From: a virus
Length of the DNA: 12,822 bases
Reading direction: 5' to 3' (one strand)
Virus genome (UHGV): UHGV-1325350
Part shown: positions 641 to 12,117 of the stretch, in pieces
Position numbering within the stretch: position 1 is the first letter of the stretch
How the letters are laid out: each line of letters opens with the position of its first letter
Notes under the pieces: model-generated
The model's input: only the letters and a program-made list of their open reading frames with translations
Database searches by the model: none
What the model was told of the DNA's origin: nothing
Position numbers and translations under genes: made by a program

Positions 641-1030
641 TTAAATCACAGGTCTATAATCAAACTCCCCACTTCGGGCATCATTAATGACATGAGTGAT
701 CACACCAAACACAGCATTACTGCCCGTGCATCCATCGTCATCTACTGGTAACGCCTCTTTCTTCCCGGTGCTTAAATCCTCCAGGTGCTGGCGCGGATAC
801 TTCCTGTATCTCTTTATGCGATATTCACCCTCCATAGCGCATATAAGCAGTGAACCATCAACCGGAGTAAGTGAGGAATCAACCACCAGCAAAGCACCTT
901 GCAATATTCCCTCACGGTGATGGCTGTCTGCCGCCCGCATGAAGTAGGTCGCGGAAGGATGTCTGATTAGTTGCTGATCAAGAGAAATGCGGCTCTCTGC
1001 ATAATCCGCCGCAGGAGAAGGGAAGCCCAT
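641..1030 (-). CDS. umuD: UmuD'-like SOS mutagenesis protein (peptidase S24 fold), pre-processed form resembling phage P1 HumD
   Basis: 129 aa. Starts MGFPSPAADY, which corresponds to the first residues of cleaved UmuD' (UmuD cleaves at Cys24-Gly25 before GFPSPAADY). Retains the candidate Ser (AADSHH) and Lys (RIKRYRK) dyad positions and a C-terminal VFGVITHVI block matching UmuD VFGVVIHVV. ATG at 1028-1030 with GAGG Shine-Dalgarno. LexA box lies 19 bp upstream. Confidence 0.85.
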   Translation of the reverse strand: MGFPSPAADYAESRISLDQQLIRHPSATYFMRAADSHHREGILQGALLVVDSSLTPVDGSLLICAMEGEYRIKRYRKYPRQHLEDLSTGKKEALPVDDDGCTGSNAVFGVITHVINDARSGEFDYRPVI

Positions 1031-6001: not shown

Positions 6002-6997
6002 TCAGTTATTGAACGTGATCACTCCGCGCTCAATGGCGAAGTCGAAAAGCTGGTTAGCGGCTACGTAAAGGCGGATGCCATGTGCTTTTTCCCATGCCCG
6101 GACATCGTTTTCTGCGCTTCTGGCGCAGTCATCGCAAAGAGGAACAGCCCAGCGGTCGTGTTCGTTTAACGAGCGGGCGCGGTACATGAATGGGTGGTTA
6201 ACTTTGCCACCGCATCCGATGCACGGACGAGAAACCACAAACCGGAGATAAGCCGGGCTTTTACCGAGGACCGCTTTTGGTCGGCGCATATAAAGCAGGC
6301 CGGAATCCTCATCTACAGACAGGTTGACGATCTGCTCTGCGGTTATGTCCACCAGCTCGCGGGTACTGTGCTCCCAGGTGATATCTGATTCTTTCAGCGT
6401 ACCGGTAGGGATTTCAGTTTTTGGCTGACAAAATGCAATGCGACCGGCTTCATCTGGCAGCTCATCTTTCAGATTCCGGCGAATGGCCCAAAAAGTGAGT
6501 TCAACCATGCTCAGATCGCGTTCTGGCGGTAGTTTTAACTCGCTCGCAGCCCAGTTCATAACCCAGTTGGCACGATTCAGGGATAACTGGTCGTCCAGCT
6601 TGCTGTACCCCTTCATCATGTATTCCGCATCATGCTTCCAGCACAGGCGAACGGCAGAGCCGTTATAGAAATGAGTGGTTAGCTGGTGGCTGCAATCGCG
6701 CTTATCGTGCGCCTGGCAATCGTGGATATTGGAACTTACCCAATGAACAAGCGAATCTTCACCGCCCAACGCGTTAAATACGCGCTCGCTTTGAAAAAAC
6801 GGTTTCAGAGACTGGTTGGCAACCAGCGAATAATTCAGATCCACTACGCCATCTGGCGTGTTTTCAGCCTGTTCACGCGGAAGTGGGGAGATAATGAAAC
6901 GGCGACCTACGCCAATGTAGTTACTGGTGGGCTTGTCTACCGGAAAGACAGCCACACCAGCTCCGTTTACGAAATGAGGTGTGATTATTGCACTCAT
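6002..6997 (-). CDS. DUF968-like phage protein with C-terminal Cys/His cluster (possible His-Me finger/HNH-like nuclease), 331 aa
   Basis: C-terminus PCIGCGG-x3-H...NEHD...VPLCDDC resembles the C-x2-C...H...H...LPLC pattern in the Ref-like protein at 11208-11786. A second Cys/His-rich patch lies near residues 90-130. Weak Shine-Dalgarno. Preceded by an operator-like palindrome. Confidence 0.55.
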   Translation of the reverse strand: MSAIITPHFVNGAGVAVFPVDKPTSNYIGVGRRFIISPLPREQAENTPDGVVDLNYSLVANQSLKPFFQSERVFNALGGEDSLVHWVSSNIHDCQAHDKRDCSHQLTTHFYNGSAVRLCWKHDAEYMMKGYSKLDDQLSLNRANWVMNWAASELKLPPERDLSMVELTFWAIRRNLKDELPDEAGRIAFCQPKTEIPTGTLKESDITWEHSTRELVDITAEQIVNLSVDEDSGLLYMRRPKAVLGKSPAYLRFVVSRPCIGCGGKVNHPFMYRARSLNEHDRWAVPLCDDCARSAENDVRAWEKAHGIRLYVAANQLFDFAIERGVITFNN

Positions 6998-7038
6998 AAT
7001 GTATACCGACTCTGTTTTGTTCCGAGCGGTAAAATAAT

Positions 7039-7069
7039 ATGTTAGAAAACTAAAATCAATGTTCTAACA
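7039..7069. promoter_or_regulatory. Operator-like palindrome TGTTAGAA-N14-TTCTAACA containing the recurring 11-mer ATGTTAGAAAA; possible internal promoter
   Basis: Perfect 8-bp inverted arms at 7040-7047 and 7062-7069 in the 97-bp gap between the phosphatase and DUF968 genes. On the minus strand TTGATT (plus 7054-7059) sits between the arms as a -35 candidate. The same 11-mer recurs at 11129-11139 and 11787-11797. Confidence 0.5.
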
Positions 7070-7094
7070 CATTATGAGTGCGTAAATGATTTGA

Positions 7095-7784
7095 TCAGAC
7101 TTTAAGCTGCCCTCCCTTCACCTGCATTAGCGTCAGATTTCCGCAAAAAACCGCGCCCGTGTCTATGTAGTGCTGATTCCAGTATGCTTTTGGTCTTCGT
7201 ACCGGTGTGTGCCCAAAGATAAAGCGATCTGCGCCTGTGATTTCTCCACCAATGCCATCTATCGAATCACTGATACGCTCGCGCGCCCAGACAACGTTGA
7301 AAAGCGGCACCTCCTTACCGAATTGATATTCATTATCCGGATAGTCGGCATGGGCTATAACGATAGTTTCTTGCCCGGTGTTCAACTCAATGATATAGGG
7401 CAGTCGTCTTACCAACTCCACCAGCGCCCTGGCTAATATTTCCTGATCAGCGTCCAGCATGAAGAACCATTGACCGCCATTCATTAGCCAGTTATTCACG
7501 TTGCCATCAGGACTTAACGCATCGAGCATCAACAGCTCATGGTTCCCCACTACTGCCCTGAACCAGGGCATCTGCAATAGCTCCAGGCATTCAACATTTT
7601 CGGCGCCGCGATCGATAAGGTCGCCAACCGATATCAGTAAATCCTGTGTCGGGTCAAAATCCACACGATGGAGTTCATTCATAAGTAGGGTGTAGCAACC
7701 GTGCAAATCACCAACAACCCATATGTTTCTGTAGCCTGAACCATCAATACGGCTATATAACGCCTGGTCGTTAACGGTGATCAT
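7095..7784 (-). CDS. Ser/Thr protein phosphatase, lambda PPase (NinI/PrpA)-like metallophosphatase (229 aa)
   Basis: PPP-family motifs GDLHG, GDLIDRG and GNHE in the expected order. Close resemblance throughout to lambda PPase as I recall it. ATG overlaps the upstream TGA (ATGA). Confidence 0.9.
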
Positions 7785-10934: not shown

Positions 10935-11089
10935 CAAAATTTCCCCAGCATCGTGACGCAAAACATAAGCACTGCAAAAAGCTCAATACCAAGCTCAAGT
11001 AGCGCCAACGCGCCGAAAAACAGCACATAAAACAGGCCGATCTCATTCACAGGTGGCTGGTGGATCGCACTTAAGGCTATAAGCATCAT
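10934..11089 (-). CDS. Small hydrophobic membrane protein, 51 aa; first gene of the leftward operon (not in ORF track)
   Basis: My translation: MMLIALSAIHQPPVNEIGLFYVLFFGALALLELGIELFAVLMFCVTMLGKF. GGAGGA Shine-Dalgarno just upstream of tandem ATG (11084-11089). TGA overlaps the ATG of the DUF4406 gene. Confidence 0.4.
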   Translation of the reverse strand: MMLIALSAIHQPPVNEIGLFYVLFFGALALLELGIELFAVLMFCVTMLGKF

Positions 11090-11115: not shown

Positions 11116-11143
11116 ATATTAATGTTTTATGTTAGAAAATCAA
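11116..11143 (-). promoter_or_regulatory. Predicted sigma70 promoter of the leftward operon (-35 TTGATT, 16-bp spacer, -10 TAATAT on minus strand)
   Basis: Minus-strand sequence TTGATT-TTCTAACATAAAACAT-TAATAT. The operator half-site TTCTAACAT lies in the spacer. About 25 nt upstream of the GGAGGA Shine-Dalgarno of the first ORF. Confidence 0.55.
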
Positions 11144-11159
11144 TTTTGAATATCTAACA
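11130..11159. promoter_or_regulatory. Operator-like palindrome TGTTAGA-N16-TCTAACA in the divergent control region
   Basis: Inverted 7-bp arms at 11130-11136 and 11153-11159. Contains the 11-mer ATGTTAGAAAA (11129-11139) also found at 7039-7049 and, in opposite orientation, at 11787-11797. Lies between the leftward operon and the rightward Ref-like gene. Confidence 0.55.
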
Positions 11160-11207
11160 AATATGATCAATCATAAAAAAATCGCTGATAAGTAAGAGGC
11201 AGCCAAC

Positions 11208-11786
11208 ATGCAGAGACAGAGTTATTGGGAGAAACAGAGACAAAAAGCCATGCAAAAACTGGCTGATCCGGAATGGCGGGAAGAGCAAAGGGCAAAACGT
11301 CTTCAGCAGGCTCAACGCCAGCAGCAACGCGCAAGGGAAAAAGCCGCATCGCCTGAATATCGTCAAAAGAAACTTGAAAAAGTGAGGCAAAATGAACAGC
11401 GCAGAAGAGAGAGGGCGGCGTCAGCCCTCCCCAAAAAAACGCGCCCGTCACGCGGATTAAAAGGGAGATCACTCACAGCAGAAGAGCGCCGGATACAGGA
11501 CGCTATAGGCAAACTCCCCTGTATTGCCTGCCATCTTCACGGGAAGCATAGCCCTGTCGTATCTCTCCACCACATATTTGGCAGAACGGCTAAAGATGCC
11601 CATAAATACGTTCTCCCTTTGTGTAAATGGCACCACCAGCACGCAGCGCCAGCAGAGATCCGCGAACAATATCCCTGGTTGGTTCCTGTTCATGCTGATG
11701 GAAAAATAGGCGGGAAAGCAGATTTTATACGGCACAATGCCGAAGAGATGACGCTCTATCAGACGGTGCAAGAAATGGTGAATTAA
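11208..11786 (+). CDS. ref: Ref-like recombination enhancement function protein: HNH-type nuclease with basic low-complexity N-terminal half (phage P1 Ref-like), 192 aa
   Basis: N-terminal about 95 residues are K/R/Q/E-rich and look disordered. C-terminal half carries a His-Me finger/HNH-like motif (CIACHLHGKH...SLHHIFGR...LPLCKWHHQH). AAGAGG Shine-Dalgarno 8 nt upstream of the ATG. Architecture matches what is known for P1 Ref. Confidence 0.6.
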   Translation: MQRQSYWEKQRQKAMQKLADPEWREEQRAKRLQQAQRQQQRAREKAASPEYRQKKLEKVRQNEQRRRERAASALPKKTRPSRGLKGRSLTAEERRIQDAIGKLPCIACHLHGKHSPVVSLHHIFGRTAKDAHKYVLPLCKWHHQHAAPAEIREQYPWLVPVHADGKIGGKADFIRHNAEEMTLYQTVQEMVN

Positions 11787-11805
11787 TTTTCTAACATTTT
11801 ATGTT
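11787..11805. promoter_or_regulatory. Third copy of the operator 11-mer (TTTTCTAACAT) with small palindrome AACAT-TTT-ATGTT, immediately after the ref stop
   Basis: Exact 11-mer at 11787-11797 in forward orientation. A possible rightward promoter follows (TTGAGT 11804-11809, 17 bp, TACATT 11827-11832). Confidence 0.4.
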
Positions 11806-11910
11806 GAGTTTGAAATTTACTGATTGTACATTTTGATTAGATTGGTTCACCGCTCGACGCAACGAGACAAATCCTCAAGGATTTCGTATGATTGCCAATG
11901 TCATAGTTAT

Positions 11911-11977
11911 GGCAGCGCAATACAGGTGGCTAAAAGCCCCCGTTGACTCACGGTGTTCCAACCTGTATTGCGCCGCC
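11911..11977. repeat. Long inverted repeat (13-bp perfect arms GCGCAATACAGGT / ACCTGTATTGCGC, extendable to about 19 bp with 2 mismatches, 33-bp spacer)
   Basis: Arms at 11915-11927 and 11961-11973. No U-run follows, so it is not a typical intrinsic terminator. Lies in a 330-bp region without a confident gene. Confidence 0.6.
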
Positions 11978-12117
11978 ACCAGACCGTGGAACAGTCTGTG
12001 ACGGCTTCGAAAGCAAGGAGTCACTATGAACAATTACAAACTTTTCCCATCACTCACCGTCTACTCACGCAATAACCTGCGTTCTTTGCTCCCATCAAAA
12101 CTGGAGGGAGTATCAAA

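What the first reader, a model, noticed from the sequence alone, without database searches (positions are those of the whole stretch)
7039..7069. Same operator 11-mer recurs inside the operon, and a third time after ref
ATGTTAGAAAA occurs exactly at 7039-7049 and 11129-11139, and as its reverse complement at 11787-11797. Three exact copies of an 11-mer in 12.8 kb, all intergenic, are very unlikely by chance. At 7040-7069 it forms a perfect 8-bp-arm palindrome (TGTTAGAA-N14-TTCTAACA) flanking a TTGATT -35-like hexamer, mirroring the layout at the main promoter. This points to one regulator controlling the operon head, an internal re-entry point before the DUF968 gene, and the region downstream of ref.
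Basis: seen in the sequence. Interest (0 to 1): 0.55.

Follow-up and report, generated by a model that had tools for sequence, protein, structure and literature searches.

The report
D6-type C1 repressor operator sites
The repeated 11-mer is the core of the binding site for the master prophage repressor (C1) of a D6-like, P1-related plasmid prophage, so it is a real regulatory motif, but of an already well-understood kind.

Summary
ATGTTAGAAAA lies at 7039, 11129 (+) and 11787 (-), and 7040-7069 is a perfect TGTTAGAA-N14-TTCTAACA dyad.

The window is a segment of a D6-like plasmid prophage of the phage P1 supercluster. It is 96% identical to E. coli plasmid pTB423 and 91% to phage D6.

The 11-mer is the core of an asymmetric ~19-bp site, T(G/A)TGTTAGAAAA(C/T)TAA(W)(W)T.
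- TGTTAGAAAA is the most repeated 10-mer in the whole D6 genome (10 copies, 9 of them between genes).
- About 15 sites sit where P1 carries its C1 operators: at c1 itself, lpa, repL, c4/icd/ant, hrdC, pmgS, after cre, upstream of ref and at the ref stop codon.
- The motif tracks the repressor type. All 15 D6-type c1 loci carry it and no P1 operator. All 52 P1-type c1 loci carry P1 operators and not this motif.
- Sites occur singly (site C) or as convergent overlapping pairs at a fixed 15-bp offset (sites A and B), like P1's monovalent and bivalent operators.

Best reading: these are operators of the D6-type C1 repressor. They shut off the leftward early operon and ref (B), an internal promoter before the DUF968 gene (A), and the c4-like immunity region (C).

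This is a new member of a known kind. Binding itself is untested. Interest is modest.

The parts
7038..7056 (+). Site A, strong operator unit TATGTTAGAAAACTAAAAT (29.3 bits)
   Evidence: Matrix scan. Invariant in 26 distinct related sequences.
7053..7071 (-). Site A, weaker convergent unit TGTGTTAGAACATTGATTT (17.5 bits). It overlaps the strong unit by 4 bp and together they form a bivalent operator.
   Evidence: The GTTAGAA core is kept in most relatives while its 5' flank varies. The same 15-bp offset is seen at site B, at D6 64114/64129, in L025-type loci and in L040.
7031..7059 (-). Candidate sigma-70 promoter for the DUF968 gene: -35 TTGATT (7059-7054), 17-bp spacer, -10 TATTTT (7036-7031). 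It is fully covered by operator A.
   Evidence: Relaxed scan, 8 of 12 matches. It missed the stricter 9-of-12 scan. Inferred, with no transcription start data.
6002..6997 (-). DUF968 / PdcB-like HNH gene downstream of site A
   Evidence: Pfam PF06147, E 6.5e-45. D6 orf98 is annotated 'similar to P1 pdcB'.
7095..7784 (-). ppp-like metallophosphoesterase gene upstream of site A
   Evidence: Pfam PF00149. D6 orf97.
11128..11146 (+). Site B, strong operator unit TATGTTAGAAAATCAATTT (27.4 bits)
   Evidence: Conserved in all D6-type ref loci, including ones whose flanks are unalignable.
11143..11161 (-). Site B, weak convergent unit TTTGTTAGATATTCAAAAT (12.8 bits). The same unit is a full-strength site (20-28 bits) in relatives L025, L027, L029, L034 and L040.
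11116..11143 (-). Candidate promoter of the long leftward early operon: -35 TTGATT (11143-11138), 16-bp spacer, -10 TAATAT (11121-11116). The first ORF starts at ATG 11089 behind a GGAGGA Shine-Dalgarno sequence.
   Evidence: Relaxed scan, 8 of 12. Sequence. Inferred.
11146..11174 (+). Candidate ref promoter: -35 TTGAAT (11146-11151), 17-bp spacer, -10 AATCAT (11169-11174). It lies back-to-back with the leftward promoter, and both -35 boxes lie under operator B.
   Evidence: Relaxed scan. The TGATCAA(T/C)CAT block is conserved in divergent relatives. Inferred.
11208..11786 (+). ref (RecA-dependent nuclease) gene
   Evidence: Pfam PF16786, E 2.7e-36
11780..11798 (-). Site C, single operator unit AATGTTAGAAAATTAATTC (25.0 bits). 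The ref stop codon (11784-11786) lies inside it.
   Evidence: Present at the same place in all complete D6-type ref loci. P1 has its C1 operator Omat over its own ref stop codon.
11804..11832 (+). Candidate promoter just right of site C: -35 TTGAGT, 17-bp spacer, -10 TACATT
   Evidence: Both hexamers are conserved across relatives while the spacer sequence varies.
11864..11892 (+). Second promoter-like site, GAGACA-17-TATGAT, directly upstream of the c4-like RNA
   Evidence: Strict scan, 9 of 12. Conserved blocks GAGACAAA and TTTCGTAT.
11905..11983 (+). c4-like antisense RNA (ImmI-type immunity RNA)
   Evidence: Rfam RF01695: 39.7 bits, E 8e-6, full-length match, below the gathering score of 45

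Best explanation
The 11-mer is the conserved core of the operator recognised by the C1-family master prophage repressor of D6-like, P1-related plasmid prophages.

The site is an asymmetric ~19-bp sequence, T(G/A)TGTTAGAAAA(C/T)TAA(W)(W)T. It occurs singly or as two convergent units overlapping by 4 bp.

In the lysogen, C1 is encoded elsewhere on the plasmid, outside this window. It would occupy:
- Site B, covering the back-to-back -35 regions of the leftward early operon and of ref.
- Site A, covering an internal promoter in front of the DUF968/pdcB-like nuclease gene.
- Site C, at the ref stop codon, next to the promoter of the c4-like immunity RNA region.

These units would therefore stay off until the repressor is inactivated.

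Shown here: the motif, its genome-wide distribution, its positional equivalence to P1 C1 operators, and its exclusive association with D6-type c1 genes.

Inferred: that C1 is the protein that binds, the promoter positions, and the repressive outcome.
For: 1. The element is D6-like.
2. An unbiased k-mer count shows TGTTAGAAAA is the most repeated 10-mer in the whole D6 genome, with 10 copies. In a P1-type genome the top 10-mer is the known C1 operator core ATTGCTCTAA, with 13 copies.
3. Sites chosen only for containing TGTTAGAA share further conserved positions on both sides and have no internal dyad.
4. D6 and pTB423 carry 13-15 strong sites, nearly all between genes. They lie before c1, lpa, repL, icd/ant, hrdC/rdgC and pmgS, just after cre, upstream of ref and at the ref stop codon. 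P1 carries annotated or consensus C1 operators at the same gene positions: Oref, Omat, Olpa, OpmgR, OpmgT, Oc1, plus the consensus-matching sites before c4/icd, kilA-repL and hrdC-dmt, which I equate from memory with the classical Op51, Op53 and Op68.
5. The two operator types are mutually exclusive. The P1-type genome has 18 P1-consensus sites and no D6-type site. D6, pTB423 and the window have no P1-type site.
6. All 15 c1 loci with D6-type C1 hold D6-type sites (30 sites, 0 P1-type). All 52 P1-type c1 loci hold P1-type sites (237 sites, 0 D6-type).
7. An invariant site lies 12-30 nt upstream of the c1 start codon in all 30 such loci that retain the sequence upstream of c1, even where the rest of the upstream region diverges.
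8. D6 C1 and P1 C1 are homologous: same PHROG at E 1e-170 and 1e-140, BLASTP E 2e-8, 21% identity. Both lie next to pacB. The low identity fits a changed specificity.
9. P1 C1 is known to bind 22 dispersed, asymmetric 17-bp operators (PMC8546580).
10. Composition controls rule out an AT-richness artefact.
Against: - No binding or expression data exist for any D6-type site.
- The c1 gene is not in the window, so its presence in this particular element is inferred from 96%-identical pTB423 and from IMG/VR contig 3300045988_131606.
- Co-occurrence with D6-type c1 cannot by itself exclude another protein specific to the D6 lineage.
- Promoter candidates match the consensus only 8 of 12, and the strict scan found none at A or B.
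- Site C lies 5 bp upstream of its candidate -35 box rather than over it.
- The D6 and P1 consensus sequences can be aligned in either orientation with about 8 matches, so homology of the sites themselves is not demonstrable.
- The spacing of paired units differs: the P1 pair spans 28 bp and the D6-type pair 30 bp.
Confidence: 0.85

Rival explanations
1. The motif is bound by another DNA-binding protein specific to the D6 lineage, such as an unannotated early regulator, a co-repressor or an Ant/Rha-type protein, and not by C1.
For: The association shows only that the motif belongs to the D6 lineage, so any lineage-specific regulator would co-vary in the same way. D6-like elements lack the P1 co-repressor Lxc, which suggests their lysogeny control differs from P1 (PMC6799933).
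Against: The sites occupy the same gene positions as experimentally established P1 C1 operators, including c1's own leader, lpa, repL and the ImmI promoter. The style matches C1: asymmetric sites, single or paired, dispersed over the genome. In each genome the top repeated 10-mer is the corresponding operator core.
Confidence: 0.08
2. The primary function is at the RNA level. The dyads form hairpins in read-through mRNA that control translation or stability, and the DNA repeat is secondary.
For: The site A region folds into a stable structure: -34.8 kcal/mol, z = -6.45. The operator dyad forms one hairpin, and a closing helix pairs with the DUF968 start codon.
Against: Most copies, including site C and about 10 sites in D6, are single asymmetric units that cannot form a hairpin. 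The sites occur in both orientations relative to transcription. No compensatory changes were seen.
Confidence: 0.03
3. The recurrence is chance in AT-rich intergenic DNA.
For: About 15% of Markov simulations of the window contain some 11-mer three times. The gaps are 31-35% GC.
Against: Column-permuted matrices give about 0 hits. The sites are conserved in position across divergent relatives. D6 has 10 exact copies of the 10-mer against 0.17 expected. The motif is absent from P1-type genomes and from the K-12 sample.
Confidence: 0.01

Closest known systems
Phage P1/P7 C1 repressor operator network (Op sites, 17-bp asymmetric consensus ATTGCTCTAATAAATTT, 22 sites)
   Same: The repressors are homologous (same PHROG). 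Both use asymmetric sites of about 17-19 bp, with roughly 15-22 copies dispersed over a ~90-kb plasmid prophage. Both have sites at c1, lpa, repL, c4/icd/ant, hrdC, pmgR/S, after cre, upstream of ref and over the ref stop codon. In each genome the operator core is the most repeated 10-mer.
   Different: The sequence is different: no P1-consensus match within 3 mismatches in D6 and pTB423, or within 4 in the window. The repressors share only 21% identity, and D6 C1 has a C-terminal extension of about 60 aa. No Lxc co-repressor is reported in D6-like elements. Site A has no counterpart in P1, because homology to P1-type phages stops inside ppp.
P1 bivalent operators (for example Oc1ab = former Op99a/b)
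   Same: Two asymmetric units face each other with their AT-rich ends overlapping, giving a near-palindrome that covers a promoter.
   Different: The P1 pair overlaps by 6 bp and spans 28 bp. The D6-type pair overlaps by 4 bp and spans 30 bp between the outer ends of its two 17-bp units, or 34 bp with the flanking T(G/A). The two unit starts are at a fixed 15-bp offset, so the conserved cores are about 20 bp apart instead of about 15.
P1 ImmI region (Op51 - P51 - c4 antisense RNA - icd - ant)
   Same: Site C is followed by two tandem promoter-like sites and a c4-like RNA. D6 has icd and ant further downstream.
   Different: The c4 match is below Rfam's gathering score. In the closest plasmid pTB423 no icd/ant follows this copy and mat lies further on. 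The window ends before this can be resolved.
Lambda-type CI/Cro operators
   Same: Prophage repressor sites overlapping early promoters.
   Different: Lambda-type sites are individually two-fold symmetric, bound by dimers and clustered at the immunity region. Here the unit is asymmetric and scattered genome-wide.

Membership tests
P1-type C1 operator network (kind) | Asymmetric operator unit of about 17 bp with no internal dyad | tested here: met
   Alignment of 12 D6 sites gives the conserved positions T(G/A)TGTTAGAAAA(C/T)TAA(W)(W)T, with no self-complementarity.
P1-type C1 operator network (kind) | Many copies dispersed over the phage genome, in intergenic regions before early, replication and immunity genes | tested here: met
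   D6 has 15 sites >=20 bits and pTB423 has 13. Of the 10 exact 10-mer copies in D6, 9 lie between genes.
P1-type C1 operator network (kind) | Occurs both as single (monovalent) and as convergent overlapping paired (bivalent) operators | tested here: met
   Window sites A and B are pairs and C is single. The 15-bp offset is constant in more than 6 independent pairs.
P1-type C1 operator network (kind) | The element encodes a C1-family repressor with an operator at its own gene | tested here: met
   D6 and pTB423 C1 fall in phrog_1678 together with P1 C1. An invariant site lies 12-30 nt before the c1 ATG in all 30 loci that retain that upstream sequence. The c1 gene itself lies outside this window.
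P1-type C1 operator network (kind) | The operator type tracks the repressor type | tested here: met
   15 of 15 against 52 of 52 c1 loci, with no cross-type sites.
P1-type C1 operator network (kind) | Direct binding by C1 and repression of the adjacent promoter | not testable with these tools
   Needs EMSA or footprinting, ChIP and reporter assays.
P1/P7 immunity specificity (exact family) | Match to the consensus ATTGCTCTAATAAATTT | tested here: not met
   No match within 4 mismatches in the window, and none within 3 in D6 or pTB423. This is therefore not a P1/P7-specificity operator.
P1/P7 immunity specificity (exact family) | The repressor is an equivalog of P1 C1 (NCBIfam NF041318, cut-off 500 bits) | tested here: not met
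   D6 C1 scores 25.4 bits, against 607.5 for P1 C1.
Lambda-type dyad-symmetric operator | Each individual site is two-fold symmetric | tested here: not met
   Site C and most D6 sites are lone asymmetric units.
P1 late (Lpa-dependent) promoter | A -22 box resembling AAGTGACTT, 4-5 bp upstream of a -10 hexamer, in front of late genes | tested here: not met
   The P1 boxes extracted from the annotation do not resemble TGTTAGAAAA. The motif precedes early and immunity genes, not the tail, lysis or packaging operons.

The most novel reading that the evidence does not exclude
Site A may be part of a two-level gate on the DUF968/PdcB-like nuclease.

In transcripts reading through from ppp, a conserved helix (GCACUCA, 7081-7075, with UGAGUGC, 6997-6991) closes a three-way junction around the operator hairpin and buries the DUF968 start codon. 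Only transcripts started at the internal, C1-controlled promoter would lack the 5' arm of that helix and be translatable.

If so, synthesis of the nuclease would depend on de-repression at site A itself, not on activity of the operon head.
Probability: 0.15. Interest if true: 0.5.

Novelty: new member of a known kind. Interest (0 to 1): 0.3.

Why it matters
- It defines the operator and the likely regulon of the master repressor of D6-like plasmid prophages. The site B region was found on plasmids in 95 of 5,426 complete E. coli genomes.
- It explains at the sequence level why D6-type and P1-type elements should be heteroimmune.
- It allows automatic annotation of the lysogeny-controlled promoters in these plasmids.
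- It offers a second repressor-operator pair from the P1 family that is probably orthogonal to P1's.
- It does not reveal a new regulatory principle.

Tried and rejected
- Rfam at gathering thresholds found nothing in the window. Only the relaxed search gave the c4-like match.
- The strict promoter scan found no promoter at A or B. Only 8-of-12 candidates exist.
- A scan of species-representative genomes with D6 C1 found no relative.
- The D6 genome paper (Gilcrease & Casjens 2018) and the P1 genome paper could not be opened. Full-text searches found no open paper that describes D6 operators or contains the motif in this context. The RefSeq D6 record annotates rox and cix sites but no operators.
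- I looked for a natural 'operator swap' at site A in P1-type phages that share the flanking genes. Homology stops inside ppp, so the test is not possible.
- LexA box CTGT-N8-ACAG: none in the window.
- P1 late-promoter box: unrelated to the motif and weakly represented in D6 with my pattern.
- IHF consensus: checked by eye at A and B, no fit.
- Aligning the D6 and P1 consensus sequences to infer site homology and orientation gave about 8 matches in either orientation, so it is ambiguous.
- C1 has no Pfam domain and no solved relative. I did not model its structure.

Full report
**1. The observation.**
ATGTTAGAAAA occurs exactly at 7039-7049 (+), 11129-11139 (+) and 11787-11797 (-). The sequence at 7040-7069 is TGTTAGAA-N14-TTCTAACA, a perfect 8-bp-arm dyad. 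The TTGATT hexamer between the arms reads on the minus strand. Site B (11130-11159) has the same geometry: TGTTAGA and TCTAACA start 23 bp apart at both places. All three copies lie in AT-rich gaps between genes.

About 15% of first-order Markov simulations of the window contain some 11-mer in three non-overlapping copies. Other results show the motif is real:
- It is the only 11-mer with three copies in the window.
- The similarity extends beyond the 11-mer.
- Column-permuted versions of the motif matrix, which keep its base composition, give essentially no hits.

**2. What the window is.**
The window is a segment of a D6-like plasmid prophage of the P1 supercluster. It is 91% identical to phage D6 over half its length, and 96% identical to E. 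coli plasmid pTB423 (NZ_CP034790.1) over 86%.

The gene order follows D6:
- A long leftward array runs from a small ORF (ATG at 11089) through DUF4406, ead/Ea22-like genes, ppp (7095-7784) and a DUF968/pdcB-like gene (6002-6997) to hot and humD homologues.
- ref (11208-11786) is transcribed rightward.
- A relaxed Rfam search places a c4-like antisense RNA at 11905-11983. It scores 39.7 bits at E 8e-6, below the gathering score. The DNA right of ref is therefore an ImmI-type immunity region.

**3. The motif in full.**
I took every TGTTAGAA in the D6 genome and aligned the copies. This shows an asymmetric site of about 19 bp, T(G/A)TGTTAGAAAA(C/T)TAA(W)(W)T, with conserved positions on both sides of the word used to select the sites and no internal dyad.

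A matrix built from these 12 sites scores them highly by construction. It also finds three further D6 sites that were not in the training set: before lpa, before repL, and the partner unit before hrdC.

In the window it finds five units:

| Unit | Coordinates | Strand | Bits |
|---|---|---|---|
| A, strong | 7038-7056 | + | 29.3 |
| A, weak | 7053-7071 | - | 17.5 |
| B, strong | 11128-11146 | + | 27.4 |
| B, weak | 11143-11161 | - | 12.8 |
| C | 11780-11798 | - | 25.0 |

A and B are therefore convergent pairs overlapping by 4 bp, and C is a single unit. The same 15-bp offset between paired units recurs before D6 hrdC and in several related loci. In some of those loci the weak arm of B is a full-strength site.

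**4. Genome-wide distribution.**
An unbiased count shows that TGTTAGAAAA is the most repeated 10-mer in the whole 91-kb D6 genome, with 10 copies against about 0.17 expected. Nine of the ten lie between annotated genes. In a P1-type genome the most repeated 10-mer is ATTGCTCTAA, the core of the known C1 operator. In both genomes the next most repeated words contain Chi.

D6 has 15 sites of at least 20 bits, and pTB423 has 13. They lie:
- immediately before c1, lpa, repL, the second icd/ant operon, hrdC/rdgC and pmgS;
- just after pmgS and just after cre;
- between the capsid gene and a divergent gene;
- at the three window positions.

The P1 record annotates C1 operators at the matching genes: Oref upstream of ref, Omat over the ref stop codon, Olpa, OpmgRa/b, OpmgT and Oc1a-e. 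A consensus scan of a P1-type genome adds sites before c4/icd, kilA-repL, hrdC-dmt and just after cre.

In both lineages the ref stop codon lies inside an operator. In P1, Omat is 2628-2645 and the stop codon 2635-2637. In the window, the operator is 11780-11798 and the stop codon 11784-11786.

**5. Link to the repressor.**
D6 encodes a 345-aa protein annotated as similar to P1 C1. It lies next to pacB, as c1 does in P1. It is only 21% identical to P1 C1 (BLASTP E 2e-8). Both proteins match the same PHROG at E 1e-170 and 1e-140, while D6 C1 falls far below the NCBIfam C1 equivalog cut-off. The pTB423 protein is 90% identical to D6 C1.

The two operator types are mutually exclusive:
- The P1-type genome has 18 P1-consensus sites and no D6-type site of 10 bits or more.
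- D6, pTB423 and the window have no P1-type site.
- Among c1 loci fetched from viral contigs, all 15 with D6-type C1 carry D6-type sites (30 sites) and no P1-type sites. All 52 with P1-type C1 carry P1-type sites (237 sites) and no D6-type sites.
- An invariant unit lies 12-30 nt before the c1 start codon in all 30 D6-type c1 loci that retain the sequence upstream of c1. These C1 proteins are 79-100% identical, and the site is kept even where the rest of the upstream DNA diverges.

P1 C1 is documented to bind 22 dispersed operators with an asymmetric 17-bp consensus (PMC8546580).

**6. Mechanism proposed.**
Shown here are the sites, their conservation, their genome-wide pattern and their association with D6-type c1. 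The following is inferred.

C1 made from the plasmid's c1 gene, which lies outside the window, binds one unit each.
- At B, the strong unit covers the -35 box and spacer of a candidate leftward promoter (TTGATT-16-TAATAT, 11143-11116). The weak unit covers the -35 box of a candidate ref promoter (TTGAAT-17-AATCAT, 11146-11174).
- At A, the pair covers a candidate internal promoter for the DUF968 gene (TTGATT-17-TATTTT, 7059-7031).
- At C, the unit ends 5 bp before a candidate promoter (TTGAGT-17-TACATT, 11804-11832). The hexamers of this promoter are conserved while its spacer varies. A second promoter-like site and the c4-like RNA follow.

The promoter candidates match the consensus only 8 of 12, and the strict scan found none at A or B. 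Their positions are the weakest part of the model.

**7. Rivals.**
- Another D6-lineage-specific protein could be the binder, because lineage association alone cannot exclude that. The one-to-one positional match with established P1 C1 operators, including c1's own leader, makes C1 much the more likely (about 0.85 against 0.08).
- An RNA-level role for the dyads is unlikely to be primary, because most sites are single asymmetric units.
- Chance or AT-richness is excluded by the permuted-matrix control and by the absence of the motif from 97 kb of P1-type genome, 316 kb of P1-type c1 loci and 50 kb of K-12 chromosome.
- The motif does not resemble the P1 late-promoter box.

**8. Comparison with the known, and novelty.**
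In kind this is the P1 C1 operator system: homologous repressor, asymmetric units, single and paired sites, dispersed regulon, same target genes.

It is not a member of the P1/P7 specificity group. The consensus test and the equivalog test both fail. Paired units are also spaced differently, spanning 30 bp against 28 bp.

The two consensus sequences can be aligned in either orientation with about 8 matches. Homology and relative orientation of the sites themselves therefore remain open.

I found no description of D6 operators in the searchable literature, and none is annotated in the D6 record. The D6 genome paper could not be read.

I rate this a new member of a known kind, of modest interest. 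It is useful for annotating D6-like plasmids, which carry the site B region in 95 of 5,426 complete E. coli genomes, always on plasmids. It is also useful for explaining heteroimmunity with P1.

Noticed in passing
window 6991-7003 and 7069-7081 (minus-strand RNA): A perfect 13-bp inverted repeat, GCACTCATAATGT / ACATTATGAGTGC, brackets operator A. Its right-hand copy in the mRNA contains the DUF968 start codon. The 121-nt read-through RNA folds at -34.8 kcal/mol (z = -6.45) into a three-way junction that buries the AUG. The 7-bp core helix GCACUCA/UGAGUGC is predicted in 8 of 9 relatives, but only with invariant or wobble pairs and no compensatory changes.
   Followed up: partly
window 11905-11983 (+): c4-like antisense RNA: Rfam RF01695, 39.7 bits, below the gathering score of 45, E 8e-6, full-length match. 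It is followed by a small ORF with a strong AAGGAG Shine-Dalgarno sequence (ATG at about 12027). This suggests a second ImmI-type module right of ref.
   Followed up: partly
window, 10 positions (for example 883, 1752, 6349, 11056, 11633): Chi sites (GCTGGTGG) are about 24-fold over-represented: 10 observed against 0.42 expected, with 0 of 200 shuffles reaching 10. Seven are on the minus strand. Chi-containing words are also among the most repeated 10-mers in D6, pTB423 and a P1-type genome.
   Followed up: partly
window 7114 and L049:1103-1223: Mosaic boundaries sit next to operator A. Homology to P1-type phages ends inside ppp at about 7114. In relative L049 the sequence upstream of the operator is unrelated, and conservation begins at the left operator arm.
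   Followed up: no
window 11164-11174: The block TGATCAA(T/C)CAT, containing a GATC (Dam) site at 11165, is conserved beside operator B even in relatives whose flanks are otherwise unalignable. It overlaps the candidate ref -10 region.
   Followed up: no
window 641-1030 and whole window: A humD/UmuD-like gene is present, but no perfect LexA box (CTGT-N8-ACAG) occurs anywhere in the window. P1, by contrast, annotates a LexA site before humD.
   Followed up: partly
L179 / collection-level: The site B region occurs in 95 of 5,426 complete E. coli genomes, always once and always on a plasmid of about 76-120 kb, never on a chromosome. Some plasmids conserve only the ~50-bp operator block.
   Followed up: partly
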